Virus record (IMG/VR): IMGVR_UViG_3300032516_000003
Span: 65,341-129,340 of that record
From: a virus
Reading direction: 5' to 3' (one strand)
Length of the DNA: 64,000 bases
Positions 28,398 to 55,075 of the stretch are shown here, piece after piece. The stretch's first letter is position 1. Each line of letters starts with the position of its first letter. A program made the position numbers and the translations under genes. Below the pieces are notes generated by a model. That model was given only the letters and a program-made list of their open reading frames with translations, did no database searches and had not been told where the DNA came from.

Positions 28398-28405
28398 GGT
28401 GCCTC

Positions 28406-29466: not shown

Positions 29467-29560
29467 CTACTTCTCCTCCGGCTGCTTCTCGTAGGGCTCA
29501 GAACCCTTCACGGGATCGAGGGGAATGTTGCTGTCTGGATGCTCGACCGTGTTGCCGGCC

Positions 29561-29956: not shown

Positions 29957-29958
29957 GG

Positions 29959-30672: not shown

Positions 30673-30680
30673 GGTTTGGT

Positions 30681-30709
30681 AGATTACCAGCGATTACTCG
30701 CGTTGTCAA
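30681..30709 (-). promoter_or_regulatory. sigma70-like promoter (TTGACA -17- TAATCT) for the HNH gene
   Basis: Near-consensus hexamers in the 38-nt AT-richer gap between the polA stop and the HNH start. Confidence 0.4.
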
Positions 30710-30710
30710 G

Positions 30711-33700
30711 TTATGCTTTGGCGCTCGACCATGCGTAGCCAGCACCCATATCCACGTTCAGGGGCACCAGCAGATCGAACGGCAGTGGGTGCTCCATGAG
30801 CTCGCGGATGATCGGCATGGCCTCCACCACAGTCTCTTCTGGCACCTCGAACACCAGCTCATCGTGGACCTGGAGCAGCATCTGCACGCCCAGGCTCCGC
30901 AAACGGGGATCGAGTTCACACTTCAGCATGGCGGCCTTGGCCACGTCAGCAGCCGATCCCTGGATCACCGAGTTGACCGACTGACGTTCGTTGCGGGCCA
31001 GGTTGGCTTTCTCACTGCCGCGCATGTGGTAGCGCGACATGTGCCCCAGGGTGGCCATCTCGGGGAACCGGCGGGGCCGGTTCAGGATGGTCTCGACGAA
31101 GTGGATGTCGGCGATGACGGCGTGGATGTCGTCGATGAAGTTCTTGATGTGAGGGTAGGGCTGGAAGTACTTCGCGATCTTCGCCTTGGCCTCGTCGACT
31201 GTGCAGTCTAGCGCCTTCGCCAGCTTCTTGGGGCCCTCGCCGTAATTCAGCGCGAAGCCGATTGTATTGTGCGTGATGAGGCCGTTAGCCAGGTAGAGGT
31301 GGTCGTCATCGGCCAATTCCAGATCGACACAGGGCCCGGGTCCCACAGGAATAACTGTCATGACTTGATCAGGCAGCTGCTTATGGGATGCCTTGCGCCG
31401 GATTCGATCACGCTTGCCCGGGTGCCTGATGTAGGATCTTAGAGTTGGCCCATCAGACCCCATCACTTTTAGTCGGAAGTACCATCTCCTGTACGTAGAG
31501 TTCCACCCCGGATCGAGCCCGATCTTCAGTCCACAAGCACGTGCCATGAAAGCCAGCTGTCCGGCAAAGATGCCATCCTTTGTCGTGAGGGATATGTCTC
31601 CATCCCTCTTGTCCACTGTGCCATCTGTGTCGATCAGGCCGCCTAGGAAATGCAGTGCCGCTTCCCTACCAGCCTGTAGGATCCATGAGGGCACCCTGAG
31701 CAATTTCTTACTGTTGCGGATCAAATCCAGCGCCTCTAAGTACTCGCCCGTATGCCTGCTCCCTATGTACAGGCTAGTGTTATGGCGTCTCACCGAATCG
31801 AGCCCGATGCGAGTGCAGGCGTGGTACAGATCATCCTGCCACGAACTGTAGGGATACCCGGATGCGTCGCTACTGCCACACGGCCCGTGAGCAAATCCGT
31901 ATGCGTGGTCGCTGCTCCTACATCCATCACCGAGAAAGAGCCCGGCAAAGTATGAGACGTCGTGGTCTAGGCACAGCACAGAAGCAGGTATGCCGCTGGT
32001 CATTTTCCGTTTCCAATGCGGATACGGATGAGTTCCGAGCTGAGGCACGGCTGCCTCAGCCAATCTATCACCGGGCATGAGATCTTCTGCCTTTCGCAGT
32101 GTGCCGTCTGCTAGCAGGAAGCGGTGATTGTGAGAGCACGTAAGTACACCGCGTCGGGCCACAACCTGTAGCAGTTCTTTTTCTCCTCCATTGTAGGTAG
32201 CTTTGACGGCTACTGCGCTTTCGCGCCTGCCAGTAGCGACCTGAATGCCCGAGCTGATCTCCAGGAAGGTGTCTGGATCTTCGCCGAACCGGAAGCTCTC
32301 CATGGGGCGCAGACCGTCAGACCACACCAACGTAGTCGGATGTACACACTTGGCGTCCTGTCGGTGCAGGACCATGGCCTTCTCTTCGTCACTCAGCTTG
32401 ATCGACGAGTCCTTGGCCGCAGCCTTCTTCTTCTTGATGGCCGCGATGAGCTCGTCGTAGTCGTGGTCGTACATCAGCGCCGCCGAGCCGGAGTGGATGT
32501 CCCAGCCTCGATTGATGACGCCGATCATGTTGGGGTCTTCCGAGAAGTGAGCGAGCAATCTCATCTCCAACTGCTCGTAGTCAGAGATCACTAGGACATG
32601 GCCATCCTTGGGCATGAACGCCTGTCGGATGACGTACTTGTCATTATCCGGCCTGGGAAGGTTTTGCAGATTCGGATCAACCGAGCTGAGGCGACCAGTG
32701 ACGGTGACGTGCTGGGTCATGGTGGCATGGATGCGCCCGTCCTGATCGGTCCACTTGCGCATGCCATCCACGTAGGTGCCCTTGAACTTGCTGAGCTCGC
32801 GGAGTTGCATCAGAAGCACGGCTGCTTCAACGCCGTCATCAGCCCAGATCTGCAGGCACTCCTCGTCTGTGGATGGTTGCCGATTGCCGCTATCCCCGCC
32901 CGAGGTCATCTTGATCGGCTTCAGCCCCAGCTTGGTGAAGAACAGTTCCCGGAGCTGAGGATTGCTGCGTGGATTGATCTCCTTACCCGCGACCTTGACC
33001 AGCTGCTTTTCTAGTCGGTCAATGTCCACTTGGATCGCCGGTGAGAGCGAGTCCAGATAGCCGACGTCGACCATGATGCCGCGGCGACAGCAGTTGTGGA
33101 GCACCCGGGTGAAGGGCATCTCGTAGGTCACGAAGTAGTCCCAGAGGGACTGCCCGAGGGTGTTGGTCTCCTTCTCCAATGCCGCCTTCAGGTAGCGGAA
33201 GACCTTGAGAGTGGCGTAGGCGTCCAGCGATGCGTAGGAGACCGCCTTCTCGAAGTCATCCCGCAGGCCACGCTGCAGCCGCTCCGGGATGGTCTCATTG
33301 CGCTTGACCGTGCCGAAGGTGTCTTTGAAGGACTTCATCTGCAGCTGGTGGTAGTCCCACATGGTCTCCTTGAGACCGTGTCGGCCCTGGCGATTCTCGT
33401 CATGCAGCCAATCCATCGCCAGGGTGCAGTAGGTATCCCCTTCGGGAACACGCACGCCGGAGTTGGCGAGCATGGAGAAGTCGAAGGTCTGGTTGGTGAA
33501 GTACCACTTGAGGTCCGGATCGGGAGCCAGCTCCCGGTCCCAGATCTTCAGCATGTTGGGGCTGAAGCAGTAGCGGGACTTCTCATCAGGACTGGCCGAC
33601 CAGAGAACTATGTGGTCCTTGCGTCGATCCAGTCCGGTGGTCTCGGTGTCCATGGCGCACTCGCCGGTGTCACGGACATGGCGCACGAACTTCATCATCT

Positions 33701-33749
33701 CGTCGGCCCTGTCCACGTACGTGACAGGGGGGACCCACTGGATCATCAT
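30711..33749 (-). CDS. polA: family-A DNA polymerase with 3'-5' exonuclease domain, interrupted by an intein
   Basis: Exo I AMDTETTGLD. Motif A DYEQLEMRLLAH. Motif B RQDAK|...|TIGFALNYG, split by the insert. Motif C VHDELVFEV. Confidence 0.85.
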   Translation of the reverse strand: MMIQWVPPVTYVDRADEMMKFVRHVRDTGECAMDTETTGLDRRKDHIVLWSASPDEKSRYCFSPNMLKIWDRELAPDPDLKWYFTNQTFDFSMLANSGVRVPEGDTYCTLAMDWLHDENRQGRHGLKETMWDYHQLQMKSFKDTFGTVKRNETIPERLQRGLRDDFEKAVSYASLDAYATLKVFRYLKAALEKETNTLGQSLWDYFVTYEMPFTRVLHNCCRRGIMVDVGYLDSLSPAIQVDIDRLEKQLVKVAGKEINPRSNPQLRELFFTKLGLKPIKMTSGGDSGNRQPSTDEECLQIWADDGVEAAVLLMQLRELSKFKGTYVDGMRKWTDQDGRIHATMTQHVTVTGRLSSVDPNLQNLPRPDNDKYVIRQAFMPKDGHVLVISDYEQLEMRLLAHFSEDPNMIGVINRGWDIHSGSAALMYDHDYDELIAAIKKKKAAAKDSSIKLSDEEKAMVLHRQDAKCVHPTTLVWSDGLRPMESFRFGEDPDTFLEISSGIQVATGRRESAVAVKATYNGGEKELLQVVARRGVLTCSHNHRFLLADGTLRKAEDLMPGDRLAEAAVPQLGTHPYPHWKRKMTSGIPASVLCLDHDVSYFAGLFLGDGCRSSDHAYGFAHGPCGSSDASGYPYSSWQDDLYHACTRIGLDSVRRHNTSLYIGSRHTGEYLEALDLIRNSKKLLRVPSWILQAGREAALHFLGGLIDTDGTVDKRDGDISLTTKDGIFAGQLAFMARACGLKIGLDPGWNSTYRRWYFRLKVMGSDGPTLRSYIRHPGKRDRIRRKASHKQLPDQVMTVIPVGPGPCVDLELADDDHLYLANGLITHNTIGFALNYGEGPKKLAKALDCTVDEAKAKIAKYFQPYPHIKNFIDDIHAVIADIHFVETILNRPRRFPEMATLGHMSRYHMRGSEKANLARNERQSVNSVIQGSAADVAKAAMLKCELDPRLRSLGVQMLLQVHDELVFEVPEETVVEAMPIIRELMEHPLPFDLLVPLNVDMGAGYAWSSAKA
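31266..32348 (-). mobile_element. intein (361 aa, LAGLIDADG type) in Pol A motif B
   Basis: Starts at Cys468 (CVHPTTLVW). Contains YFAGLFLGDGC and LGGLIDTDGTV. Ends ...LYLANGLITHN with +1 Thr. The surrounding DNA is lower in GC. Confidence 0.8.
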
Positions 33750-33837
33750 CTACCTCCAAGGTGAAGGGGGGGGGTGGCAGGCGCCTTGTGCGGAGCCAAC
33801 CGTTCCTGCACGCCTGCCACTCCCCAGGTTCATCGGC

Positions 33838-35028
33838 CTAGAACGGGATCCCGTCGTCTGCCGCCACTTCTACGGCGCCATCCTTGCCGTAGTCCTCCGC
33901 GTGGTGATCAGCTTCTTCGTTCGCGTAGGGATTCTCGATCTTGAGCATTTTGGCCTGGATCGAGAATGGGTCTGCCTCGAAGATCTTCCGGAACGGCCAA
34001 GGCTGAGTCAGCTCCTTCAGCTCCTCGGTGAGCTCAATCTTCTCCCACCGGGGCACCTGGACGGTGGAGCCGGTCTTCTCTCCTGTCCGCTTGACTTCGA
34101 TGTTGCAGTCGAAGATCGTGACCGGCGTTGGGTCCTGGCACGAATTGCACTCGTTCTGCTTGAGCGGGAAATCCTCCTTGCTGCACTTGGGGCACTTGCG
34201 GGCCGCGCCGCCGAACGTGTCGGCTTCGTCGGGCTTGACGTCGGTGATGTCCAGGAGCATGGCCCCACACTCGCCGCATTCGTAGGCGACTTCGGTGATC
34301 CGGCCACCGCAGGTGCAGTCCTTGCCGATCTCCCGCTCGATGCCACCGAGCTGCTCTAGGTGGGAGTTGCCCATCGCCCAGTGGACCTTCTTGCCGAAGA
34401 TCTTCTCGACCTTCTCGCCGCACAGCTTGCAGCGCCGGCCCTCGCAGAGGACCTTGTCCATGATGACTTCGCCCTGGTGCCGGCCGTGCTCGTACTTCCG
34501 CGGACGGTCGTGCTCGTCGAGCACGGGGCTGAGGTGATACCAGGCGAGGTGGATGGCGTTCCACACGTGCATGACCCGCCAGCTGATGTTCTTGGCGTCG
34601 CTCTTGTCGTCGCTCTTGTCGTCGCTCTTGTCGCGGTGCTCACACGTCAGGCACTTGCCGGCCACGGTGGTGATCTCACCCTCGACGTACTTGTACTGCT
34701 TGGAGCAGATCAGCGACTTGTCCGGCCCGGCGATGAAGTGCTCCACATACGAGTAGTACGGCAGCGGGAAGTCTTCGAACGTGATGTAGCTGCCGGGGAG
34801 CATGCGCAGCTCGGTGGTCACGTTCTTCGGGGGCTTCCAGCGAGCCCCCCAGCGGATGTTGAGGGAGCGGCCGCGGCTCATCCGGCCGCGGCTCATCCGG
34901 CCGCCGCCGCCTCCGGTATCAGCACGGCGAGCGCTGGCGCCGCGAATCAGCTGACTGAATGGAACTCTTGGGGCTCCTCTGAAGTCCATTGTCTCTCCTC
35001 CACACGCGGAAGTCCGGTGCAGCGTCAA
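33838..35028 (-). CDS. multi-zinc-ribbon protein with short tandem repeats
   Basis: Four CxxC...CxxC pairs and a (KSDD)3 tract. The true start may be internal (MSRGR) because the 5' 110 nt overlap the primase gene. Confidence 0.45.
   Translation of the reverse strand: MTLHRTSACGGETMDFRGAPRVPFSQLIRGASARRADTGGGGGRMSRGRMSRGRSLNIRWGARWKPPKNVTTELRMLPGSYITFEDFPLPYYSYVEHFIAGPDKSLICSKQYKYVEGEITTVAGKCLTCEHRDKSDDKSDDKSDAKNISWRVMHVWNAIHLAWYHLSPVLDEHDRPRKYEHGRHQGEVIMDKVLCEGRRCKLCGEKVEKIFGKKVHWAMGNSHLEQLGGIEREIGKDCTCGGRITEVAYECGECGAMLLDITDVKPDEADTFGGAARKCPKCSKEDFPLKQNECNSCQDPTPVTIFDCNIEVKRTGEKTGSTVQVPRWEKIELTEELKELTQPWPFRKIFEADPFSIQAKMLKIENPYANEEADHHAEDYGKDGAVEVAADDGIPF
34591..34632 (-). repeat. 3 x 12-nt tandem repeat (gtcgctcttgtc) encoding DKSD-DKSD-DKSD
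   Basis: Direct repeats visible in the DNA. A second 2 x 15-nt repeat (MSRGRMSRGR) lies near 34867-34896. Confidence 0.5.
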
Positions 35029-35980
35029 TGACGCTCTGTATGACTTCCCTACTGAGGTTGTCGGGTTGTACCTTCTCGTCTTCGTAGTGCTCGGGGTACT
35101 CGCACACCTTGACGTCCAGGCCGCGCTCAGCTAGTCGGCAGCCTGTGTCGAGGGTTCCCTCCAATCCCGCTTGGTCATGATCCAGGAACAGGTAGATTGT
35201 CGCTCCCAAGCGGCTGAGCGTCAGTTCCTGGGCCCGGCTCATCCGGCTGCCCTGTAGGGCCACGGTCCATGGCCAGCCCTGCTGGATGAGCCAGATGCAG
35301 GCCTTGTATCCCTCCGCGATGATCAGCGTGTCCAGATCACCGTAGAAGATGTCCGGGAACACGTTGTGCATGTTCCACAGGAAGTTGTGGTTCCTGATCT
35401 CGTACCGCTCGTAGCGCGCCTTTACCGTGACGTCATCAGGCGCGTACTGCAACAGGTCAGCCGCCTTGTACACCTTGTAGCGCGGGCTGTCCTCATCTCT
35501 GACCGCTCGGCCAGAGATCCCCACCAAGTTGCCGTACAGATCCCGGATGGGGAAGGTGATTCGCAGCTCCCGCTTGTCGAAACCGATCTCCAGCTCTGCC
35601 AGCAGCTGCTTGTCAAAGCCAGCCTTCACCAGATCTGTTGGGCAGTACTGGAACACGCCCAACAGACTCTCGTTGATGAAGTGCTCACCCTTGCCCGGGT
35701 CGCGATCCTTGAGTGGATCCTTCGCCGGCTTGAGCTGCACGTTCTCCATGATCTGGTCGATCTGGGTGGAGGGGGCCCGCATCGCCTTGAGGAACTGGAG
35801 CAGCGTGCCCTTGGCGTGACAGGTGTGGCAGTACCAGAGACCGGTCTCGACGTTGATGTAGAAGCTGGGGTGCGACTCCTGGCCACCCTTGTGGAATGGA
35901 CAGGGGCCGCCCACGTTGTTGTTGCCTGAGGGCTTCACGAACCTCAGGAACTTCTGGGCGATGTCGAGTACGGTGCTCAA
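34919..35980 (-). CDS. DnaG-like DNA primase (zinc-binding plus Toprim)
   Basis: CPFHKGGQESHPSFYINVETGLWYCHTCHAKG (CHC2 zinc finger). IIAEGYKACIWLIQ...LFLDHDQAG (Toprim E...DxD). Confidence 0.7.
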   Translation of the reverse strand: MSTVLDIAQKFLRFVKPSGNNNVGGPCPFHKGGQESHPSFYINVETGLWYCHTCHAKGTLLQFLKAMRAPSTQIDQIMENVQLKPAKDPLKDRDPGKGEHFINESLLGVFQYCPTDLVKAGFDKQLLAELEIGFDKRELRITFPIRDLYGNLVGISGRAVRDEDSPRYKVYKAADLLQYAPDDVTVKARYERYEIRNHNFLWNMHNVFPDIFYGDLDTLIIAEGYKACIWLIQQGWPWTVALQGSRMSRAQELTLSRLGATIYLFLDHDQAGLEGTLDTGCRLAERGLDVKVCEYPEHYEDEKVQPDNLSREVIQSVIDAAPDFRVWRRDNGLQRSPKSSIQSADSRRQRSPC

Positions 35981-38745
35981 TTCTTCCCTTTCTCCTTTTT
36001 GCCCTTGAACGCCTTGGCCGCGACGGTATGTACGATGTTGGAGAGAGCCGCCGGCGTGCGCGGCCCATCGCTGTTCTTCTTGCGCTCCGCCTTGAGATTG
36101 TCGGAACCCTTGAAGAAGGCCGCGACGTCCTTGCGCTGGTAGAAGATTACCGGTTCCGTTTGAGGCTCACCCGCTTCATTGGTGAGCACCACACCCTCGT
36201 CGTTGCGCTTCTTGCGCATGACCACGCCGAAGTCGGTGGCCGCGTTGCCGTGGATGACGAAGCCGTACAGGTTGATCTCACGTGCGGCAGGGATGCAGAG
36301 CGCCAACAGGTTGCGCTCCGGGTCTCCGGTCTCTTCCTTGTTCACCTCCATGCACAGGTCGGCGTTCATCCCGTAGGCATCCGCGAAGGCGATGTTCCGC
36401 ACCGAGTAGCCTCGGGAATCCTCGGAATCACGGTTGGCCTGGGTGGTGATGACAATGGGACGCCGGTAGACCATCGCCGTCTCCTTCAGCTCCGTGACGA
36501 TGTCGGCCTGGTCCTCCCACTTGATCGACCGCTTGCCCGACTTGTCGTTCTTCATCAGGTAGGCGGCGTCCACGTAGATGATGTCCGGGTTGTGGTCGCG
36601 GATCTTCTGCTTGAGTCCTTCTACGCCACCACCATACTCGCCGCGGCGAGACTGATCTGTGGTGATGATGAAGCCCTTGTTGAACCCGGACTCCAGCCGG
36701 CAAGTCTCCTCATCAATCACCACCGTGTCCATCAGCGTGCGCAGGCGGTCCTTCATGGTGCCACCTTCCCAGACGGCAATCTGGTCCAGGCGACCCTTCC
36801 GGTAGGCGGAGTAGGGAGCATTGATGAGCAGACATGCAGTCCGGTCCATCATCTGCTCGGGCGACATCTCCCGGGTGTAGACCAGCACCCGGCGGTTGTG
36901 GTTGTAGGCGTGGACCGCCATTGACAGCAACACCCAGGTGTTATGCACGATGAAGTTCTCGACCACGAAGTTCGGATCTTGGCCATCCTCGATGCAGATG
37001 TCGTAGCAGGGGAGCACTCCGAGGTGCTCGATGCTCTTGATGCGCTCCCAGATGATGTCGCTGTCTGCCACCTTCTGCAGTTCGGGACTTTCGAGGGCCC
37101 GCGCCAAGAGCTGGAGCAGGTGCCTGCTGATGCGACCGGTCCTACGGAAGAACTTGCTCGCATCCAGCTTTGATCCGCCCCAGCGGGGCCAGGGCTTATC
37201 GACCTTGGCCTCCAATATCTGGGCCATGAGTCGATCGCTGTAAGGCACAGCATCGGCGTTCCTCTTCTCCATGACGTCGAGCATTGCCAGGCGCTCTAGG
37301 GCCTGCCGCTTTCGTGTCAGGCACAGATGGCTGCCGAGTACCTCATGGAGTTGCTGATGCTGTTCCTTGGAGTAAACCACCAGCATGTATGCGAACGTGT
37401 CGAAGTTGGTGACCAATTCTTGGATTCTCCCGCGGATACCAAAACGAGAGAGCAGATGCTGCACCCCTTCAAGTAGCTTTCTGCTGGCGCTGCTCCAGGA
37501 CACCGTGCTGCGAGAAACATGCCCATCCGTGTCTAGCAAGCCGGCGAGGAAAGCTGCCACAGATGCGGGGCTCGATCTGAAGATGCTTTCGGGGACCTCC
37601 TTGTCTGGTCCCTTCTTACCGTGCATCCCCAATTCGTGCAGACGATCTAGCAGTAGGTTGTGTTTACCCGATGCACGTACAATGCGGTATTCGATGGGTC
37701 GTGTCTCTTGGTGCAGCTCACAGTTGAACAGCGAAGAGGAGAGGCGCTCTACGAGAGCCTTCAATTCTTCATCCTCAGTGGTGAACTGCACCTCGTCCCT
37801 GGTGTAGTTGCCATCCCCAACGAGCATTCCTAGTAGTTGCGCTTCATCGGTTTCGATCTTGCTGCTGGGTTCCGTCTCTGGCAGTCGTCGTGCAGTGGCT
37901 ACGTAGTCTCCAGGTTGGAGCTCGCAGATGCGGCGATAACCACCGCCTGGCACCATGTAGAGGTGCTCTGTGCTGGTTCGCAGCAGAAGACCTGACTCAG
38001 TCTCAACCTCTACTGAGTCTTTCTCTCCGCTTACCACGCGCCGAGCTCGTGCCCACCTGGTCTTTCCCGTCTTTTCGGTGTAGGAGGGTACATCGAGCGA
38101 CTCAGGTAGCTGCTCGATGGGAACCAAGGAACCGTCACGCAGCATGATCTTCTGGCCGACCGGAACGCACTTCATCGACTTGGGCCGGCCGTATAGGACG
38201 ATCAGCTCTCGATTCTGGATACCACGAGTCTCCTCGTTCAGCGGCTTCCAGGGGTACGGGATGCCTTGGACGCTCTCCGGATTCTCGTACCGCTCGTAGC
38301 GCGCCATCGTCTCCTGCATGTAGCTGGAGACCTCGATGTCCTTGCCGATGCGGCGATCCTTGGAGACGGCTTCCAGGCGAGAGAGCGAGCGCGCCAGCAG
38401 CGCGTCAACATCCTTATGCTTCTTGTTGTTGTCCAGGATGTCATCGCATAACGCGCCCAGCTCCCGATTGGTGCGGTAGTCGAGCAGGTCCTTGATGTGT
38501 ACTGCCAGTGGTGTGCGGCTGGTGCGCGGCAGGGAGATGTGTGGGAACTTCTCCTCCAGTCGTTCACGGGTGGGTACTGTGCCCTTGCTCTCATCCGACT
38601 CGTAGAACGCGGCGATGTCATTCCACAGCTGCCGCGCCCCATCATCGGCGAAGCACTCGGCCGAAACCCCTTCGTCGACTGCCAGCCGGAAGTTGCCTTC
38701 CTCGACGAGCTTGGCGATGAACAGCAGCTCTTCGTTGGCCGGCAT
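35977..38745 (-). CDS. DnaB-like replicative helicase interrupted by an intein in the P-loop
   Basis: Walker A GRPKSMK|...|TWVLLSMAV. Downstream SxEMS-like REMSPEQM and Walker B IIYVDAAYLM. Start set at MPANEE (TGATG overlap with the upstream stop). Overlaps the primase start as ATGA. Confidence 0.75.
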   Translation of the reverse strand: MPANEELLFIAKLVEEGNFRLAVDEGVSAECFADDGARQLWNDIAAFYESDESKGTVPTRERLEEKFPHISLPRTSRTPLAVHIKDLLDYRTNRELGALCDDILDNNKKHKDVDALLARSLSRLEAVSKDRRIGKDIEVSSYMQETMARYERYENPESVQGIPYPWKPLNEETRGIQNRELIVLYGRPKSMKCVPVGQKIMLRDGSLVPIEQLPESLDVPSYTEKTGKTRWARARRVVSGEKDSVEVETESGLLLRTSTEHLYMVPGGGYRRICELQPGDYVATARRLPETEPSSKIETDEAQLLGMLVGDGNYTRDEVQFTTEDEELKALVERLSSSLFNCELHQETRPIEYRIVRASGKHNLLLDRLHELGMHGKKGPDKEVPESIFRSSPASVAAFLAGLLDTDGHVSRSTVSWSSASRKLLEGVQHLLSRFGIRGRIQELVTNFDTFAYMLVVYSKEQHQQLHEVLGSHLCLTRKRQALERLAMLDVMEKRNADAVPYSDRLMAQILEAKVDKPWPRWGGSKLDASKFFRRTGRISRHLLQLLARALESPELQKVADSDIIWERIKSIEHLGVLPCYDICIEDGQDPNFVVENFIVHNTWVLLSMAVHAYNHNRRVLVYTREMSPEQMMDRTACLLINAPYSAYRKGRLDQIAVWEGGTMKDRLRTLMDTVVIDEETCRLESGFNKGFIITTDQSRRGEYGGGVEGLKQKIRDHNPDIIYVDAAYLMKNDKSGKRSIKWEDQADIVTELKETAMVYRRPIVITTQANRDSEDSRGYSVRNIAFADAYGMNADLCMEVNKEETGDPERNLLALCIPAAREINLYGFVIHGNAATDFGVVMRKKRNDEGVVLTNEAGEPQTEPVIFYQRKDVAAFFKGSDNLKAERKKNSDGPRTPAALSNIVHTVAAKAFKGKKEKGKN
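36940..38169 (-). mobile_element. intein (410 aa, LAGLIDADG type) in the helicase P-loop
   Basis: CVPVGQKIMLRDG... with LLGMLVGDGNY and LAGLLDTDGHV. Ends NFIVHN with +1 Thr. Confidence 0.8.
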
Positions 38746-39104
38746 CAGTTCACCTTGCGGAGCACGATCTGACTCTTGGGAAAGATCAAGGTGCCGGCCG
38801 TGCCTTCGACTAGACATAGCGTGTAGCGGTCGATCCACTTGAGCGTGCCGGCGTACTCTTTCTCGCCATACATCACCACTACGACCGACCCAATCCAGTC
38901 GCGCACCTCGGTGTGCCAGTTGTCCTGGACGTTCAGCAGATCCTTCAGCTGCCGCACGTCCTTCTCCAGCCGGTCCACCTTGTCCTTCAGACTCTGTAGC
39001 TTCTTGGACTGATCATTCTGGGGCATGGGAGGTCTCCTGAGGGTGGGGGGAGTGGCAGCATCTACTGCCTCGAATTGAACGTCAAGACAGTAGATGCCAA
39101 CCAC
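38745..39104 (-). CDS. coiled-coil protein with possible Sm/Hfq-like C-terminal domain
   Basis: SVVVVMYGEKEYAGTLKWIDRYTLCLVEG...IFPKSQIVL resembles the Sm1/Sm2 pattern. Confidence 0.35.
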   Translation of the reverse strand: MVGIYCLDVQFEAVDAATPPTLRRPPMPQNDQSKKLQSLKDKVDRLEKDVRQLKDLLNVQDNWHTEVRDWIGSVVVVMYGEKEYAGTLKWIDRYTLCLVEGTAGTLIFPKSQIVLRKVN

Positions 39105-39114
39105 CGGAGACTCC

Positions 39115-49219: not shown

Positions 49220-52200
49220 GTGGCTACCTCCTCGATGTTCGGCGGCTCCCAGAGCGCGATGCGCTTCTCCCACACCCGTGGGAGAATCAGCGGCAGTCAG
49301 GACTACGGGCTTCAGTACCCCAGCCCCTTCTTCGACATCGCCCACACGTACCTGCCGGCCACCGTCAAGCAGATGTTCCGGTGGTGCCGGTACTACTTCC
49401 TCGTCAACCCACTGATCAACGCCATCGTAGCCAAGATGTCCGAGTACCCGGTCACGGACATCATCTTCGACACGGAGAAGCCGGAGCTCAAGCAACAGTG
49501 GAAGGACTTCCTGCTGGAGCACCTGCGCTATCGAGCGTTCCAGATCGAGACGGGCCTCGACTACTACACCTACGGCAACACCCTGATCAGCATCTTCTAC
49601 CCCTTCATCAAGCTGCTGGTCTGCCCATCTTGTGGCAAGAAGACGCCGGCCCGCGAGGCGGAGTACCGCTTTCAGAACTTCCAGTTCATCATCAGCTGCA
49701 GCTGTGGTCACCACGGCCCGGCTGATACGGTGGACCACTACATCCGGGCGCCCAAGGGCATCCGGCTGCTGCGCTGGAATCCTGAGGACGTGGACATCCG
49801 CTACAACGACATCACCGGCGAGTACGAGTACTACTACACGGTCCCCACGCCACTGCGGAACGACATCATCATGGGCCGCAAGTCGACGGTGGAGACTGTG
49901 CCCCAGTTGTTCATCGACGCCTTGAGGCTAAAGAAGGCGGTCGTCTTCAGCCGTGACAACATCTACCACTTCAAGCGCCCCACCTTGGCCACCAAGGATC
50001 GCGGCTGGGGCACGCCGATGATCCTGCCGGTGCTGAAGGACACCTTCTACCTGCAGATCCTGCGGAAGGCCCAAGAATGCGTGGCACCCTCGACACTCAT
50101 CGAGTCTGTTAATGGCCTGGTGCCGGCTGATGACGTACGGGTGGGGGATCTAGTTAGAACGCACACCGGCCAGTGGCAGCCAGTGGAGAAGAAGTGGTAT
50201 CGAGATGCCCGCGAGGAAGAGATCGGACGCAAAATCATACTGGCTGGGCTGCGACCGTTTGGTGCTGTCTACTCTCCACAGCACCCGGTGTTTAGCCTTC
50301 GTCGCAACGAGGAGGGTCGGAGGATTGATACCAAGGATCGCCAGCGATCTTCTGTGATCTTGCGCAACCCACACCTCTACGAAGAAGTGCTGTGTCCCGC
50401 CGAGCAGCTACAGGTAGGAGACTACGTGCTCTACCCGCGTCGGCTTCCGACGGAAGATACGACGGTAGACGTAGCCCAGTATACTGGACTGACATCTACA
50501 GATGGCTGGGTCTACAGTGGTTGCGGGGAAGAGACGGCACAGGCGTTTGAGGCTTTGGAGCGCGGTGAACATGTCACGCACGACAATGCAGGGCAGGTGG
50601 CAAAGAGGATCCTGAAGGAGGGCCGTACCCCCAAGCGTATGGCAGCCTCTAGGCTCATGACTGAGGACTTCGCCTACGTCTTGGGCTGGTACGCAGGAGA
50701 CGGCAGTTGTGGCACTCGCCACGTCACATTTTCCTTGGGCAAGAAGGACGACCCAGCGCCATTGATGGCCGCCATCAAACGCGAGTTCGATTCGGTCGCT
50801 ACTGTCGAGATGGGGGAGTCAATCAATTCGGTGGTACTGTCTGATGTCATAGTGCGTCAGCTGATCAAAGGCATGATCCCCGGCGTAGCCAGGATCAAGC
50901 GCGTCCCGATTGAGGTACTGAACGGCACGGATAAGGTGAAGTTGGCCTATCTGCGCGGGCTGTGGGAGGCCGATGGCTGCAGGAGCGAGCATCAAGCGAC
51001 GCTGGCTACCAGCAGCCGCGAGCAGGCGTACGACGTCTATCGCCTGCTGCTACACTTCGGCTGCATTGCTAGCGTAAACCAGCGTCAAACGGCTGACTCG
51101 CAGCTGTCTGACGGCAGAGTCATCGTTGGTGGTACCCACTACCATACAGTGGCCTGCAGTGCGTCTCGTGATCGCCTCATGTCTCTGCTGGAGTGCGGAG
51201 GTGGGCCAGAGATCACTTCAGGCAAGAGCGGCTTCTTCTGGAAGGACTATTTCGCGTCTAGGGTAAGCGCGATCGAGGAGTCTGATGAGGAGCAATACAT
51301 CGACTTCAAGGTCAAGAACGACACCACCTTCTGTACGCCGGGCACAGCGACGAAAAATTCTATTGCGCTCGAACACATCGTGCCTCTGCGAATCCTCTTC
51401 CCACAAGCCGGGTCTGCCACCAGCGACCCGTACTGTCTATCGGTCAGTACATTGGTGGAGATCAATAAGGGATATCTCCCCGCAGGCGAGGTGAAGGTAG
51501 GCGATCTGGTTAAGACCTATCGTGGCAAATACCTTCCGGTGATTGCGATCAAGCGACGCCTGGTCAAGAAAGCGGAGAAGGTGTACGCGATCGGGGTGGT
51601 TGGTATGTCGGCCTTCCCCGTGGAGGCGTCTGAAGACCATCCTTTCTTTGCGGTCCAAGCTGAGGGCCGGCAGAAGAGGTATATCGCGGACTGGCAGCCA
51701 GATTGGGTAGCGACTAAAGACCTGCAGATCGGGGACTATGTTGCCTATCCGTTAGCACGAGAGATCAAGAATAGCCTCTCGGTTGACGTAGCGCAGTATC
51801 TGAGCTCCTACGTGGCTACTGACGAGTGGGTATATCGGCAGATCACGAAGGAGGGGGCAGAAGTCTACGAGTATGTAGAGCAGAGAGAGCAGCGACTATT
51901 TGCGGGAGGAGAGCTGCAGCAAACTGCTGCACAACACGGCTGGTCAGTGCCCACTCTGCAAACTACCGCCAGCCGCTATCGGCGTGGCCATCGAACCTCC
52001 AGGATCCCGCGACATCTCTCATGGTCCAAGCATCTTGCTACGATCGTAGGGTACTACCTGGCCGAGGGTTGCATTGGGAATCATATTACCTTCTCTTTGC
52101 ATAAGAAGGAGACTTGGATCTGCGACGAACTAGATGTCGCCTTCACGGCGCTGTTGGGTAAGAAAGGCACCCGGCGAACTCATGGCGACAATGGCTTGGT

Positions 52201-55075
52201 CTACGAGATCAGTGACAGTATCTTCGGAGAGTTCCTCCAGAACTACCTCGGTCACTTGGCCTGGAACAAGCGACTGCCACAAGAGGTCGTGCATCTTCCA
52301 GACGAGGTCATTCGCGAGCTTGTACGCTGTCTAATCAATGGTGACGGGGGCCGCGAGGAATGTTACCGAGACAACGGTACAGGCAGAGCCTGCCGTACTT
52401 CTTCGATGACGTTCACTTCAACTTCCAGAGACTTGGCCTTGAAGCTACGAGAGTTGTTGCTCTACTTGAGGGTAGTGGGCAAGGTACACCGGACACCTGT
52501 CCGTGAGAGACGCAAGCACGAGATCTTCCGCGTGAAAGTGTCTGGTGCGGAGGCCGTGGGGCTTTGGCAGCAGCTTGGTTGGGCCCTCCCCGAATTGGAG
52601 GTCAAGAAGGACACCACACGTTCCTTCATCCAGGGAGACTACGCCTTCTTCAGGGTGCAGAAGAAGGCGGAGCTCCATGATGTTGACTTCGTCTATGGCT
52701 TCCAGGTGGATGGAGACAAGAGCTTCTGTGTTCCGGCGTGCGCCACCCACAATACCACGGTCAACCTCCAAGACTGGCGTGACCACGTCGCCGGGGAGAT
52801 CAGACGGTGGCGTTGCGTATCACCCGACTCCATGGTTGAAACCATGGAGGGGCTGCGCCCGGCCGGAGAAGTGACAGTAGGAGATTGGCTGAAGAACCGG
52901 CTTGGAGGTTACGATCGCGTAGTCAAGCGTCACGAACGCGCGCTTGATCCAGGGGAGTTGGCGTATCGCCTGAGGGTGCGTGGGCAGCACGCTATTCAGA
53001 CCGTCTACTCTGAGGAACACCCCATCTTTGCCGCGCGCAAGCAGAACAACGGCAACGGCCATAAGCTGGGGGCACGCGAGTTCATTCCTGTAGCTGCACT
53101 CTCTGTCGGTGACTATGTAGGTTATCCTACCCGACGAGATGTCGTAAAGTATGTTGATCTGGACATCTCAGCTCACGTAGATCGGGCGGCTACAGATAAG
53201 TTCGTGTACACCGACTACCTGGAGTCCGATACGCCTCTGGCGTTCGAGTACCTTGAGGCACATCCGCAGGCGGGGGCCGCAGAGGCGGCCGCGGCCTCGG
53301 GGTGTCCAATTACCCCGGCCAAGACGGCGCATAACGCCGTTCGGGAAGGGCGTACGCTTAGACGCATCCCACGGTACCTCCCGTTTGACAAAGATCTGAT
53401 GTACGTGCTCGGCCTCTACGTGGCCGAAGGCAACGCTACACCCAAGCAGGTGATGTTCTCCTTGCACAAGGACGAGACCGAGATCTGTCAGCGTCTGGAC
53501 AGCTTCTTCCTGTCACGGTTTGGTGCGCACAGAACTGGCGGGCAGAAGACTGAGAATGGGATCCAGATCGCTTACAGCAGTGTCATCGCTGCTCAGGTAT
53601 TCCATGGGCTGGTTCCTGGTATAGCCATGAACAAGCGTCTGCCAGAAGCAGTTCGCCAGGCATCAGACGAACTAGCACTTGAGGCAGTGCGTGGCGTACT
53701 TGATGGTGATGGGTGCTACTATACCGACAAGACGGTGTTGGGAACCGCTAGTCGGCAGCTAGCAGAAGATGTGCGTCAACTGCTGCTATCTTGGGAAATC
53801 ATGCCCGGCATTTCTTTTGTTTCGGGCGGTCCCACCATCATCTGTGGTCGCGAGACCGTAGGCCACGGCTGCTACCTCGTTCAGGTCTCTGGTGACCAGC
53901 ACGCCAAGCTACAGGCACTCTTGCAAGGGGTGTCCTATACGGGTGCTGAGCACTGTAGATCAGGGCTATTCCGGGATGGCTTTGCCTGGTTCCGCATTGA
54001 GGCCATCGAAGAAGCTGAGCCGGAGAAGGTAGTGGCCTTCCAGATGGATGGTGACAGCACCTTCTGTACCTGGGGCGTGGCCACTCACAATAGCGACAAC
54101 AACTACATCCCCATCATGCCGCTGCCCATCGGCAACCAGACTATCGGCGGGGATGGCCGGGCCCTGCTTCTCAGCCAGGAGATCCGGGTATGGTCGGAGC
54201 ACATCGTGGCTGGGATGGGCGTACCAGTAGAGCTCATCTTCGGCGGCATGAGCTACTCGGGTAGCAACGTGTCGCTGCGCATGCTGGAGAACACCTACCT
54301 CGGCTACCTGCAGGACCAGCTCTCACTGCTGCGCTGGGTCATCCGCAACGTGTCCTCCTACTTGGGCTGGGCACCAGTGCGGGCCCGCTTCAAGCCGTTC
54401 AAGATGGCCGACGACCTGCAGCGGAAGGCCTACCTGTTCCAGCTGAGCCAGGCCGGCAAGCTCTCGGACGAGTCACTCCTGGCGGACGCCGACTTCGACT
54501 CGACCAAGGAAGACGCGATCATAGAGCGTGAGGCCTCCCGCCGTTCGGAAGCGCTACGCAAGCAGCAACTCATGCAGGCTGACATCCAGGGTGAAGCCCA
54601 GATGCAGAGCATGAAGTGGCAGACCAAGGCGCAGACCAAGGCGCTGAAGGAGCAGACGGCCATGCAGAACGAGATGGCCAAAGATCAACTGGCTACTCAA
54701 GCCGCCGCGCAGCAGGGACAGATCCCGCCGCCGCTGCCTCCTCGACCTGACCTGATTCAGCCGCCTCAGGAAGTGAAGTCACCACTCACCCTGCAGTCGG
54801 TGCAGCCCATCACCCCGGCCACCACCGGCGAATCCCTGGTCGGCCAGCAGAACATCGACCTGCTCTACCTCGGCCGCCAGCTCGCCGATCGCATCAACAA
54901 CATGGATGAGCTGCAGAAGCCGCAGGCCTTGGCGCAGCTGCGTGAAGACTCACCACAACTCTATGACGTCGTCTTGGGGCTAATGGCAAGCGGACCGAAG
55001 GGTCAAGTATCCGCCGGGCGGCCCCTGCCTGAGCAGAGACCGCCACGGCGGGGTCCAGAGAGCAGCTTGATCTAA
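49220..55075 (+). CDS. portal (T7 gp8-like head-tail connector) carrying three inteins. Mature extein about 658 aa
   Basis: Extein NNYIPIMPLPIG...GDGRALL resembles T7 gp8 YIPIRMVRLDGESYG, and the Q-rich C-terminal helix resembles gp8's C-terminus. The 1951-aa ORF minus inserts of 427, 440 and 426 aa gives about 658 aa. Confidence 0.65.
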   Translation: MATSSMFGGSQSAMRFSHTRGRISGSQDYGLQYPSPFFDIAHTYLPATVKQMFRWCRYYFLVNPLINAIVAKMSEYPVTDIIFDTEKPELKQQWKDFLLEHLRYRAFQIETGLDYYTYGNTLISIFYPFIKLLVCPSCGKKTPAREAEYRFQNFQFIISCSCGHHGPADTVDHYIRAPKGIRLLRWNPEDVDIRYNDITGEYEYYYTVPTPLRNDIIMGRKSTVETVPQLFIDALRLKKAVVFSRDNIYHFKRPTLATKDRGWGTPMILPVLKDTFYLQILRKAQECVAPSTLIESVNGLVPADDVRVGDLVRTHTGQWQPVEKKWYRDAREEEIGRKIILAGLRPFGAVYSPQHPVFSLRRNEEGRRIDTKDRQRSSVILRNPHLYEEVLCPAEQLQVGDYVLYPRRLPTEDTTVDVAQYTGLTSTDGWVYSGCGEETAQAFEALERGEHVTHDNAGQVAKRILKEGRTPKRMAASRLMTEDFAYVLGWYAGDGSCGTRHVTFSLGKKDDPAPLMAAIKREFDSVATVEMGESINSVVLSDVIVRQLIKGMIPGVARIKRVPIEVLNGTDKVKLAYLRGLWEADGCRSEHQATLATSSREQAYDVYRLLLHFGCIASVNQRQTADSQLSDGRVIVGGTHYHTVACSASRDRLMSLLECGGGPEITSGKSGFFWKDYFASRVSAIEESDEEQYIDFKVKNDTTFCTPGTATKNSIALEHIVPLRILFPQAGSATSDPYCLSVSTLVEINKGYLPAGEVKVGDLVKTYRGKYLPVIAIKRRLVKKAEKVYAIGVVGMSAFPVEASEDHPFFAVQAEGRQKRYIADWQPDWVATKDLQIGDYVAYPLAREIKNSLSVDVAQYLSSYVATDEWVYRQITKEGAEVYEYVEQREQRLFAGGELQQTAAQHGWSVPTLQTTASRYRRGHRTSRIPRHLSWSKHLATIVGYYLAEGCIGNHITFSLHKKETWICDELDVAFTALLGKKGTRRTHGDNGLVYEISDSIFGEFLQNYLGHLAWNKRLPQEVVHLPDEVIRELVRCLINGDGGREECYRDNGTGRACRTSSMTFTSTSRDLALKLRELLLYLRVVGKVHRTPVRERRKHEIFRVKVSGAEAVGLWQQLGWALPELEVKKDTTRSFIQGDYAFFRVQKKAELHDVDFVYGFQVDGDKSFCVPACATHNTTVNLQDWRDHVAGEIRRWRCVSPDSMVETMEGLRPAGEVTVGDWLKNRLGGYDRVVKRHERALDPGELAYRLRVRGQHAIQTVYSEEHPIFAARKQNNGNGHKLGAREFIPVAALSVGDYVGYPTRRDVVKYVDLDISAHVDRAATDKFVYTDYLESDTPLAFEYLEAHPQAGAAEAAAASGCPITPAKTAHNAVREGRTLRRIPRYLPFDKDLMYVLGLYVAEGNATPKQVMFSLHKDETEICQRLDSFFLSRFGAHRTGGQKTENGIQIAYSSVIAAQVFHGLVPGIAMNKRLPEAVRQASDELALEAVRGVLDGDGCYYTDKTVLGTASRQLAEDVRQLLLSWEIMPGISFVSGGPTIICGRETVGHGCYLVQVSGDQHAKLQALLQGVSYTGAEHCRSGLFRDGFAWFRIEAIEEAEPEKVVAFQMDGDSTFCTWGVATHNSDNNYIPIMPLPIGNQTIGGDGRALLLSQEIRVWSEHIVAGMGVPVELIFGGMSYSGSNVSLRMLENTYLGYLQDQLSLLRWVIRNVSSYLGWAPVRARFKPFKMADDLQRKAYLFQLSQAGKLSDESLLADADFDSTKEDAIIEREASRRSEALRKQQLMQADIQGEAQMQSMKWQTKAQTKALKEQTAMQNEMAKDQLATQAAAQQGQIPPPLPPRPDLIQPPQEVKSPLTLQSVQPITPATTGESLVGQQNIDLLYLGRQLADRINNMDELQKPQALAQLREDSPQLYDVVLGLMASGPKGQVSAGRPLPEQRPPRRGPESSLI
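50078..51358 (+). mobile_element. portal intein 1 (427 aa, LAGLIDADG type)
   Basis: ...RKAQE|CVAPSTLIES... with VLGWYAGDGSC and LRGLWEADGC. Ends TFCTPGTATKN with +1 Ser, so the penultimate residue is Lys rather than His. Confidence 0.75.
51434..52753 (+). mobile_element. portal intein 2 (440 aa, LAGLIDADG type)
   Basis: ...SDPY|CLSVSTLVEINKG... with IVGYYLAEGCIG and LVRCLINGDGG. Ends SFCVPACATHN with +1 Thr. Confidence 0.75.
52814..54091 (+). mobile_element. portal intein 3 (426 aa, LAGLIDADG type)
   Basis: ...IRRWR|CVSPDSMVETMEG... with VLGLYVAEGNAT and VRGVLDGDGCY. Ends TFCTWGVATHN with +1 Ser. Confidence 0.75.

What the first reader, a model, noticed from the sequence alone, without database searches (positions are those of the whole stretch)
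30711..38745. Replication inteins at classic sites: Pol A motif B and the DnaB P-loop
Pol A is split exactly between RQDAK and TIGFALNYG (motif B, the O-helix). The DnaB-like helicase is split between GRPKSMK and TWVLL (Walker A). Both inserts are canonical C...HN+Thr LAGLIDADG inteins and lie in DNA of lower GC than the host genes. With the portal and RNAP inteins, the window carries six inteins in 64 kb. That density is notable, and it ties expression of replication, transcription and packaging to protein splicing.
Basis: seen in the sequence. Interest (0 to 1): 0.5.

Follow-up and report, generated by a model that had tools for sequence, protein, structure and literature searches.

The report
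Homing inteins in phage polymerase and helicase
Two replication genes of an uncultivated large phage, its DNA polymerase and its DnaB-like helicase, are each interrupted at the active site by a self-splicing, mobile protein element (an intein); this is a known kind of parasite, but six of them sit in 64 kb of this genome.

Summary
The family A polymerase gene (30711-33749, minus strand) has a 361-aa insert (31266-32348) between ...HRQDAK and TIGFALNYG. The DnaB-like helicase gene (35977-38745, minus strand) has a 410-aa insert (36940-38169) between ...GRPKSMK and TWVLL.

Close relatives (85% and 96.5% identical) lack both inserts and read straight through the predicted junctions. Both inserts keep Cys1, the block B His, the block F Asp, the terminal His-Asn, a Thr at +1 and two LAGLIDADG motifs with their acidic residues. 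High-confidence models match solved endonuclease-containing inteins.

The helicase site is the published "classic" P-loop Lys|Thr site (DnaB site b). The polymerase site aligns to Taq K663|T664 in the O-helix. I found no paper that describes it. Even so, all 62 full-length homologous inteins examined lie at or one residue beyond that Lys, in phage and bacterial Pol I alike.

Intein third-position GC is 0.61-0.68, against 0.80-0.85 in the host genes. Inteins are better conserved than their host proteins, which indicates horizontal homing. The count of six inteins is correct.

Verdict: real, and new members of a known kind. Any regulatory role for splicing is untested.

The parts
30711..33749 (-). 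Family A DNA polymerase precursor gene (3'-5' exonuclease + polymerase), 1012 aa with intein, 651 aa after predicted splicing
   Evidence: ORF. Pfam DNA_pol_A E=5.9e-96 and DNA_pol_A_exo1 E=2.5e-10. Identical protein P0001 on a 193,704-bp public contig.
32349..33749 (-). Polymerase N-extein (aa 1-467), ending ...HRQDAK (motif B Arg and Lys)
   Evidence: Aligns to Taq ...RRAAK.
31266..32348 (-). Polymerase intein, 361 aa, class 1: Cys1, block B S72-x-x-H75, block F D342/H350, H360-N361
   Evidence: TIGR01443 intein C-terminal region scores 21.2 bits, above its 15.6 cutoff. AlphaFold model pLDDT 95.4. Foldseek matches to TliVMA intein (E=5.6e-17) and PI-SceI.
31389..31982 (-). LAGLIDADG homing endonuclease domain inside the polymerase intein (about aa 123-320). 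Motif 1 YFAGLFLGDGC (nt 31920-31952, acidic residue D141). Motif 2 FLGGLIDTDGT (nt 31617-31649, acidic residue D242).
   Evidence: Pfam LAGLIDADG_3 E=2.4e-8. Alignment to PI-PfuI. D242 invariant and D141 at least 90% conserved in 25 homologues. Motif positions.
30711..31265 (-). Polymerase C-extein, starting TIGFALNYG (rest of motif B, then motif C HDE); includes the stop codon
35977..38745 (-). DnaB-like replicative helicase precursor gene, 922 aa with intein (ATG at 38745), 512 aa after predicted splicing
   Evidence: ORF. Pfam DnaB_C 36.8 bits, above its 27 cutoff. Identical P0121. Solved DnaB helicases match at E=1e-10.
38170..38745 (-). Helicase N-extein (aa 1-192), ending ...YGRPKSMK (Walker A up to the Lys)
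36940..38169 (-). Helicase intein, 410 aa, class 1: Cys1, block B S66-x-x-H69, block F D390, H409-N410
   Evidence: Pfam Intein_splicing 47.1 bits, above its 35.8 cutoff. NF005852 E=1.2e-44. Invariant residues. AlphaFold model pLDDT 93.4. Foldseek match to TliVMA intein TM 0.77, E=8.8e-25, and to PI-PfuI.
37282..37857 (-). LAGLIDADG homing endonuclease domain inside the helicase intein (about aa 105-296). Motif 1 LLGMLVGDGNY (nt 37807-37839, acidic residue D119). Motif 2 FLAGLLDTDGH (nt 37519-37551, acidic residue D215).
   Evidence: Pfam LAGLIDADG_3 E=6.8e-20 and Hom_end E=6.3e-8. PI-PfuI alignment. D119 present in 30/31 and D215 in 29/31 homologues.
35977..36939 (-). Helicase C-extein, starting TWVLLSMAV (Walker A Thr onward); includes the stop codon
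50078..51358 (+). Related feature outside the finding: intein 1 of 3 in ORF 49220-55075 (weakly portal-like). KAQE|CVAPS...TATKN|S, 427 aa.
51434..52753 (+). Related feature: intein 2 of 3 in the same ORF. SDPY|CLSVS...CATHN|T, 440 aa.
52814..54091 (+). Related feature: intein 3 of 3 in the same ORF. RRWR|CVSPD...VATHN|S, 426 aa.
58309..59328 (+). Related feature: intein in the beta-like half of the fused beta-beta' RNA polymerase ORF 55966-63141. GRHGNKGIIT|CHDQW...VWSGN|C, 340 aa.

Best explanation
Both inserts are bona fide class 1 inteins that carry a LAGLIDADG homing endonuclease. Each sits in a catalytic motif of an essential replication enzyme of an uncultivated phage of about 194 kb and 61% GC.

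Splicing (inferred from established intein chemistry, with every required residue shown to be present). The precursor is translated as one chain. Cys1 attacks the preceding Lys carbonyl to form a thioester. The Thr +1 hydroxyl then takes over the N-extein. The terminal Asn cyclises, helped by the penultimate His and the block F Asp/His, and releases the intein. An O-to-N shift leaves a normal Lys-Thr peptide bond. That bond restores the polymerase O-helix (...RQDAK-TIGFALNYG) and the helicase P-loop (GRPKSMK-T).

Consequence for the enzymes (inferred). The inserts of 361 and 410 aa split the dNTP-binding helix and the ATP-binding loop. The unspliced proteins should therefore be inactive, and replication should depend on splicing.

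Spread (inferred from distribution and conservation). During co-infection the free intein endonuclease should cut the intein-less allele at the insertion point. Recombinational repair then copies the intein in (homing).
For: - Precise insertion: exact colinearity with intein-free close relatives, in protein and in DNA. A syntenic relative, L001, lacks both inteins.
- Splicing residues are present. In the polymerase intein family C1, D342 and N361 are invariant, and H75, H350 and H360 are conserved in at least 90% of sequences. In the helicase intein family C1, H69, D390, H409 and N410 are invariant. The +1 residue is Thr in both.
- Fold: models with pLDDT 95.4 and 93.4 match solved endonuclease-containing inteins (TliVMA, PI-SceI, PI-PfuI), free LAGLIDADG enzymes (I-DmoI) and mini-inteins.
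- Endonuclease: both acidic residues are retained in each intein and conserved in the families.
- Sites: the polymerase junction aligns to Taq K663|T664 in motif B. The helicase junction aligns to the GK|T of Walker A. It is the same site as in a cellular two-intein DnaB, P0159.
- Mobility: helicase inteins are 39-66% identical (24 of 30 at 50% or more), while their exteins are 27-45% identical. The three nearest extein relatives (96.5, 79.6 and 54.7%) have no intein. Mini and shortened derivatives exist: P0157, P0151, P0156. Intein GC3 is 0.61-0.68, against 0.80-0.85 for the exteins.
- Not an artefact: the same intein-containing helicase appears in an independent assembly.
Against: - No experiment: neither splicing nor endonuclease activity is shown.
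- No clear co-conversion tract flanks either junction when the window is compared with intein-free relatives. Recent homing into this genome is therefore not demonstrated.
- The nearest homologous polymerase intein is only 58% identical, so no recent donor is identified.
- Lower GC3 could reflect constraints on the intein coding sequence rather than recent arrival.
Confidence: 0.9

Rival explanations
1. The inteins still splice but are no longer mobile. The endonucleases are inactive or have no targets left, and the elements persist only by vertical descent because precise deletion is rare.
For: No co-conversion tract next to either junction. The nearest polymerase intein relative is only 58% identical. 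Shortened and mini derivatives in the helicase family show that the endonuclease does decay in some lineages.
Against: Both catalytic acidic residues are kept in both inteins, and they and other endonuclease residues are conserved across 25-31 homologues down to 30-40% identity. The nearest extein relatives are intein-free, while distant exteins carry similar inteins. Empty target sites therefore exist in the population.
Confidence: 0.2
2. The inteins have been co-opted as switches. Splicing is conditional (on redox state, temperature or substrate), so that replication, transcription and packaging proteins mature only under certain conditions.
For: Conditional splicing is documented for a P-loop DnaB intein (PMC6195587) and others. 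All six inteins of the window sit in enzymes or virion proteins that the phage needs. Both inteins hold extra cysteines: 8 in the polymerase intein and 6 in the helicase intein.
Against: Nothing in the sequence points to regulation. Close relatives do without the inteins. The patchy distribution and the intact endonucleases fit a selfish element.
Confidence: 0.08
3. The inserts are not functional inteins. They are assembly chimeras, or dead insertions in pseudogenes of a defective phage.
For: The sequence comes from a metagenome. No isolate or expression data exist.
Against: Both ORFs are intact, with all catalytic intein residues present. An identical protein appears in an independent assembly. 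Extein motifs are intact on both sides. Homologous inteins occupy the same sites in dozens of other genomes.
Confidence: 0.02

Closest known systems
DnaB site b (P-loop) inteins, e.g. Mycobacterium smegmatis DnaBi1 (PMC6195587; site naming in PMC4760082)
   Same: Same host protein family and the same position: between the Walker A Lys and the Ser/Thr that then serves as the +1 nucleophile. A metagenomic cellular-type two-intein DnaB, P0159, shows GARPSMGK|C...HN|T.
   Different: Msm DnaBi1 is a class 3 mini-intein without an endonuclease. The window's intein is class 1 (Cys1, Asp at block F position 4) and carries a full LAGLIDADG endonuclease. The host here is a divergent phage helicase whose Walker A reads GRPKSMKT (Met in place of the second Gly).
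'Classic' P-loop Lys|Thr inteins of phage ATPases, e.g. mycobacteriophage TerL1-a (PMC5050341)
   Same: Insertion between the invariant Lys and the nucleophilic Thr of a P-loop in a phage protein. Neighbouring alternative sites one to a few residues apart also occur: TerL1 a/b there, and the 3-codon shifted helicase variants P0127, P0130 and P0152 here.
   Different: Different host protein (terminase against helicase) and an unrelated intein lineage. In deposited phages the best matches to the helicase intein are 31% identical or less.
Endonuclease-containing inteins of known structure: TliVMA/PhoVMA inteins (7qss, 7qsu, 7qst), PI-PfuI (1dq3), PI-SceI (1vde)
   Same: Overall architecture: a Hint splicing domain split by a two-motif LAGLIDADG endonuclease. 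TM 0.77 (helicase intein) and 0.61 (polymerase intein) to the TliVMA intein.
   Different: Sequence identity is only 13-19%. The host proteins are archaeal or yeast V-ATPase and RNR, not phage replication enzymes.
Inteins in catalytic motifs of other replicative polymerases (archaeal PolB and PolII/DP2, bacterial DnaE); bacterial Pol I is listed among intein hosts (PMC4760082, PMC5874633)
   Same: An intein in the polymerisation domain, in a motif that contacts the incoming nucleotide.
   Different: I found no description of a family A motif B site in the literature searched. The homologous intein family found here has 651 cluster representatives at E<=1e-3. All 62 full-length members examined lie at or one residue beyond the motif B Lys. 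They include bacterial full-length Pol I (P0194, P0238) and one unannotated 485-kb phage record, LR745208.1.
[quoted passage not shown]
   Same: Phage genomes of about 145-192 kb whose core genes are heavily invaded by self-splicing elements.
   Different: [quoted passage not shown] This window holds 6 inteins, and Rfam detects no intron in 64 kb. The genome is high-GC and unrelated at the sequence level: no megablast match, and polymerase identity to deposited phages is 32% or less.

Membership tests
Class 1 intein (Hint-fold protein-splicing element) | Nucleophile (Cys/Ser/Thr) at intein position 1 | tested here: met
   Cys1 in both. Invariant in 25 and 31 homologues.
Class 1 intein (Hint-fold protein-splicing element) | Block B (T/S)xxH motif | tested here: met
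   Polymerase S72-x-x-H75, with H75 conserved in at least 90%. Helicase S66-x-x-H69, with H69 invariant.
Class 1 intein (Hint-fold protein-splicing element) | C-terminal His-Asn, block F Asp, and a Cys/Ser/Thr at extein position +1 | tested here: met
   Polymerase ...ITHN|T with D342. Helicase ...IVHN|T with D390. TIGR01443 scores above its cutoff for the polymerase intein.
Class 1 intein (Hint-fold protein-splicing element) | Hint fold | tested here: met
   AlphaFold models (pLDDT 95.4 and 93.4) match solved inteins and mini-inteins. Pfam Intein_splicing is above the gathering score for the helicase intein only.
Class 1 intein (Hint-fold protein-splicing element) | Precise in-frame insertion relative to intein-less homologues | tested here: met
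Class 1 intein (Hint-fold protein-splicing element) | Autocatalytic excision with ligation of the exteins | not testable with these tools
   Needs expression and mass spectrometry of the junction peptide.
Class 3 intein (as in mycobacterial DnaB site b) | No position 1 nucleophile; Trp-Cys-Thr triplet with an obligate block F Cys | tested here: not met
   Cys1 is present, and block F position 4 is Asp (CYDICIED), not Cys. Same site, different mechanistic class.
LAGLIDADG homing endonuclease (single-chain, two-motif) | Two LAGLIDADG motifs, each ending in a catalytic Asp/Glu | tested here: met
   Polymerase D141 and D242. Helicase D119 and D215. Conserved in the families.
LAGLIDADG homing endonuclease (single-chain, two-motif) | LAGLIDADG fold | tested here: met
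   Foldseek matches to I-DmoI, I-Tsp061I, PI-SceI and PI-PfuI. Pfam LAGLIDADG_3 above cutoff.
LAGLIDADG homing endonuclease (single-chain, two-motif) | Site-specific cleavage of the intein-less allele | not testable with these tools
   Candidate target sequences are available from L001, L002 and L004.
DnaB site b (P-loop) intein allele | Host is a DnaB-family helicase and the insertion lies between the Walker A Lys and Ser/Thr | tested here: met
   Pfam DnaB_C above cutoff. Alignment to solved DnaB, ARPSMGK|TTF. Same site in the cellular-type DnaB P0159.
Family A polymerase motif B intein allele (defined here from data, not from the literature) | Insertion directly after the motif B Lys (Taq K663, E. 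coli Pol I K758 by my own numbering), by an intein homologous to those at the same site elsewhere | tested here: met
   Alignment to Taq. 59 of 62 homologous inteins sit after that Lys and 3 sit one residue later.

The most novel reading that the evidence does not exclude
This phage lineage may carry the densest load of endonuclease-containing inteins yet seen in a virus. At least six lie in 64 kb, three of them within about 45 extein residues of one virion gene, and all sit in replication, transcription or virion genes. Its polymerase intein also belongs to a large allelic family at motif B of family A polymerases that appears to be undescribed. That family spans phage and bacterial Pol I (651 cluster representatives) and includes variants shifted by one codon.
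Probability: 0.35. Interest if true: 0.5.

Novelty: new member of a known kind. Interest (0 to 1): 0.35.

Why it matters
As single elements these inteins are ordinary. Inteins with homing endonucleases in the active sites of replication proteins are the textbook pattern, and the P-loop Lys|Thr site is explicitly called classic.

Three points go beyond that.

1. The genome is a natural case of extreme intein crowding. Six inteins lie in 64 kb, three of them packed into one gene. That makes it useful for studying interference between neighbouring inteins and homing during phage co-infection.

2. The polymerase motif B site is a heavily used intein site in metagenomic phage and bacterial Pol I, yet it is almost absent from deposited phage genomes (1 of 50,697 records) and from the literature I could search. 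Gene callers and polymerase-based marker surveys of viromes will mis-size or mis-align such genes unless the intein is removed.

3. Intein-plus alleles, intein-minus alleles at 93% nucleotide identity, mini-inteins and site-shifted variants are all available. Together they offer a ready-made series for studying the homing cycle.

Tried and rejected
- Megablast of 28000-41000 against 50,697 phage records: no match. tblastn with the spliced polymerase gave at most about 32% identity. No cultured relative was identified.
- Word-indexed protein search with the polymerase intein alone: no hit, not even to itself. This is a limitation of the tool. The exhaustive HMMER search solved it.
- IMG/VR scan with the spliced polymerase: nothing confirmed.
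- Co-conversion tracts: sliding-window nucleotide identity of the exteins against intein-free relatives shows no distinct drop or rise next to the junctions. Inconclusive.
- I suspected that the 215-aa or 80-aa in-frame insert in motif B of some relatives' polymerases (P0023, P0066, P0068, P0070) is a group I intron. Rfam finds nothing, even at E<=10. An out-of-frame 141-aa ORF with an HNH-type Cys/His motif (by eye) does lie inside it. It stays a probable intron with a homing endonuclease gene, unproven.
- I suspected that ORF 29959-30672 is a free-standing HNH homing endonuclease, from its low GC and a Cys/His motif. There is no Pfam or PHROG support. Left as unknown.
- Class 3 mechanism, as in mycobacterial DnaB site b inteins: rejected, because Cys1 and the block F Asp are present.
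- Literature: no paper was found that describes a family A polymerase motif B intein. The supplements of PMC4760082 that might list Pol I sites are not held.
Full report
**1. What is in the sequence**

The region holds a minus-strand replication module:
- a DnaB-like helicase (ATG at 38745, stop codon at 35977-35979)
- a DnaG-type primase (34919-35980)
- a 396-aa ORF of unknown function
- a family A DNA polymerase with a 3'-5' exonuclease domain (30711-33749)

Both the polymerase and the helicase are single open reading frames that are far too long for their families.

In the polymerase, a 361-aa segment (aa 468-828, nt 31266-32348) separates ...AMVLHRQDAK from TIGFALNYGEGP.... In the helicase, a 410-aa segment (aa 193-602 counted from the ATG at 38745, nt 36940-38169) separates ...VLYGRPKSMK from TWVLLSMAVH.... 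Each segment begins with Cys, ends with His-Asn and is followed by Thr.

**2. More than chance**

The identical proteins exist in public data: P0001 and P0121, on a contig of 193,704 bp.

The nearest relatives of the host proteins have exactly the lengths predicted after excision:
- Polymerases P0002 (85% identical) and P0003 (80%) are 650 aa, against a predicted 651. They read ...HRQDAKTIGFGLNYGEGP....
- Helicases P0122 (96.5% over the exteins) and P0123 (79.6%) are 512 and 513 aa, against a predicted 512. They read ...YGRPKSMKTWVLLAMAVH....

At the DNA level the empty alleles are colinear with the window across both junctions, 62-66 of 72 nt identical and no gap. One relative contig, L001, keeps the same gene order and lacks both inserts. 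The intein-containing helicase was also assembled independently from another sequencing run. The inserts are therefore real, precise, in-frame insertions of 1083 and 1230 nt.

**3. What the inserts are**

*Sequence.*
- The helicase insert passes Pfam's own thresholds for Intein_splicing and LAGLIDADG_3. It matches an intein-containing DnaB model at E=1.2e-44 and solved DnaB mini-inteins and PI-PfuI.
- The polymerase insert is more divergent. It passes LAGLIDADG_3 and the intein C-terminal model TIGR01443. Its N-terminal splicing region is only weakly matched.

*Conservation.* An exhaustive HMMER search found 651 cluster representatives related to the polymerase insert, 92 of them at E<=1e-30.
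- In an alignment of 25 of these, C1, D242, D342 and N361 are invariant. H75, D141, H350 and H360 are at least 90% conserved.
- In 29-31 helicase inteins, C1, H69, D390, H409 and N410 are invariant. D119 is present in 30 of 31 and D215 in 29 of 31.

These are the canonical residues: block A Cys, block B His, block F Asp and block G His-Asn, plus the two catalytic acids of a two-motif LAGLIDADG endonuclease.

*Structure.* The AlphaFold models are confident (pLDDT 95.4 and 93.4). Both match solved endonuclease-containing inteins:
- TliVMA intein, E=5.6e-17 with TM 0.61 and E=8.8e-25 with TM 0.77
- PI-SceI and PI-PfuI
- free LAGLIDADG enzymes such as I-DmoI
- mini-intein Hint domains

*Class.* Both are class 1, because Cys1 and the block F Asp are present. 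Neither is class 3.

**4. Where they sit**

*Polymerase.* The spliced polymerase aligns to Taq polymerase with vlhRqdAKTIgFalnYG against PLMRRAAKTINFGVLYG. The insertion is therefore between the motif B Lys and the next residue (Taq K663|T664), inside the O-helix that binds the incoming dNTP. The helix assignment and the Taq numbering come from my own knowledge of family A polymerases.

*Helicase.* The spliced helicase aligns to solved DnaB helicases with ygRPkSmKTwvll against aaRPsMGKTTFAM. The insertion is therefore between the Walker A Lys and Thr. The literature calls this DnaB insertion site b (PMC4760082, PMC6195587). More generally it is the 'classic' P-loop insertion between the invariant Lys and the nucleophilic Thr (PMC5050341).

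A metagenomic cellular-type DnaB with two inteins, P0159, has GARPSMGK|C...HN|T at the same place.

*Literature on the polymerase site.* Bacterial Pol I is listed among intein hosts (PMC4760082, PMC5874633). I found no paper that describes the motif B site.

*What the data show.* The site is heavily used. All 62 full-length homologues of the polymerase intein that I examined lie in motif B of a family A polymerase. Of these, 59 sit directly after the Lys and 3 sit one residue later. The hosts include bacterial full-length Pol I with a 5' nuclease domain (P0194, P0238). They also include one unannotated 485-kb phage record, LR745208.1, the only hit among 50,697 deposited phage records.

**5. 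Evidence for mobility**

- The distribution is patchy. The three closest helicases lack the intein, while about 30 distant ones carry it.
- Of the 120 best polymerase hits, three have the motif B intein. Five others have inteins at different sites: after TGRL, in motif A after DY, and after QG before SAAD.
- Helicase inteins are much better conserved than their hosts. They are 39-66% identical to the window's intein, 24 of 30 at 50% or more, while the exteins are 27-45% identical.
- The same trend is weaker for the polymerase. Most inteins there are 31-59% identical and most exteins 26-46%, and in a few pairs the extein is the more similar.
- Decay products exist: a mini-intein without endonuclease (P0157) and shortened forms (P0151, P0156).
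- Composition differs from the host genes. GC3 is 0.61 and 0.68 in the two inteins, against 0.76-0.84 in their exteins. All six inteins of the window fall at 0.61-0.68, against 0.80-0.85 for their exteins and 0.776 +/- 0.073 for other genes.
- I looked for co-conversion tracts next to the junctions and found none that stands out. A recent homing event into this particular genome is therefore not shown.

**6. How it most likely works**

*Shown.* All residues and folds required for class 1 splicing and for LAGLIDADG catalysis are present and conserved. The insertions split the O-helix and the P-loop. Empty target sites exist in close relatives.

*Inferred from established intein biochemistry.* Splicing proceeds as follows:
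1. An N-S acyl shift at Lys|Cys1.
2. Transesterification to the Thr +1 hydroxyl.
3. Asn cyclisation.
4. An O-N shift that gives a native Lys-Thr bond.

This restores both motifs. The precursors should be inactive, so replication depends on splicing. The excised inteins should then cut intein-less alleles during co-infection, and recombinational repair copies the intein in.

A regulatory use (conditional splicing, as shown for a mycobacterial P-loop DnaB intein, PMC6195587) is possible. Nothing here supports it, and intein-free relatives manage without.

**7. The wider claim of six inteins**

The count is confirmed.
- ORF 49220-55075 (1951 aa) holds three LAGLIDADG inteins separated by only 25 and 20 extein residues. 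Its 658-aa spliced product is only weakly portal-like: PHROG 2833, E=4e-5, over aa 48-120.
- These three are each other's nearest relatives within the window, at 32-34% identity and z scores of 22-26.
- ORF 55966-63141 (2391 aa) is a fused beta-beta' RNA polymerase with one intein after GRHGNKGIIT.
- No further LAGLIDADG motif occurs in any frame.

[quoted passage not shown] From my own knowledge, the giant virus CroV has four inteins in about 730 kb. Six in 64 kb is therefore notable. I cannot show that it is a record.

**8. Verdict**

The two elements are new members of a known kind. One sits at the classic DnaB P-loop site, but is of a different mechanistic class from the well-studied mycobacterial example. 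The other sits at a polymerase motif B site that is common in metagenomes but apparently undescribed in the literature. Interest is moderate to low for the elements themselves. It is somewhat higher for the crowding of inteins in this genome.

Noticed in passing
window 49220-55075 (+): One 1951-aa ORF carries three LAGLIDADG inteins separated by only 25 and 20 extein residues. Its spliced product is only weakly portal-like. The first intein ends ...TATKN|S, with Lys instead of the usual penultimate His. The three inteins are each other's closest relatives in the window (32-34% identity), which hints at spread within the gene or a dedicated family.
   Followed up: partly
window 55966-63141 (+): A single 2391-aa ORF encodes a fused bacterial-type RNA polymerase beta + beta' (Rpb2 domains, then Rpb1 domains, with NADFDGD present). 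Phage multisubunit RNA polymerases are usually described as split into several polypeptides. It also holds an intein after GRHGNKGIIT|C...SGN|C, with no penultimate His and Cys at +1.
   Followed up: partly
L006 1932-2583 (relative's polymerase gene, P0023); also P0066, P0068, P0070: Some relatives have a non-intein insert of 215 or 80 codons in motif B, between IGFG and INYG, five residues downstream of the intein site. It reads through in frame. In L006 it contains an out-of-frame 141-aa ORF with an HNH-type Cys/His motif by eye (2096-2521). It looks like a self-splicing intron with a homing endonuclease gene, but Rfam finds no intron.
   Followed up: partly
proteins P0127, P0130, P0152 (helicase); P0052, P0176, P0193 (polymerase): Homologous inteins occupy shifted sites. 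In three helicases the intein sits three codons upstream (GRPK|C...HN|S[LM]KTW). In three polymerases it sits one codon downstream (KA|C or KN|C). Each time it uses a different native Ser, Thr or Cys as the +1 nucleophile.
   Followed up: partly
proteins P0209, P0210, P0221: Three polymerase motif B inteins appear to be followed by Asn at +1 (GHN|NLNFG), which is not a nucleophile. Either the boundary is misplaced by my alignment or these copies cannot splice in the standard way.
   Followed up: no
proteins P0018, P0026, P0077, P0044, P0053 (relatives of the window's polymerase): The same polymerase clade carries unrelated inteins at three other conserved sites: after TGRL before SS.DPNLQN, in motif A after DY, and after QG before SAAD. 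P0023 and P0026 are near-identical polymerases that carry different mobile elements.
   Followed up: partly
window 29959-30672 (-): A 237-aa Cys/His-rich ORF lies directly downstream of the polymerase gene. Its GC is 0.50-0.55, the lowest in the region. It occupies a slot that holds unrelated genes in relatives: a nucleoside deoxyribosyltransferase-like gene in L001 and NADAR in L002. It has no Pfam or PHROG match. A mobile endonuclease is a guess only.
   Followed up: partly
window 27078-28487 (-): A 469-aa RecA-like protein in which only the N-terminal third matches RecA. A Cys-rich, zinc-ribbon-like segment (CHECRSL...CSDKNCGW) follows. It might supply recombination functions for homing.
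   Followed up: no
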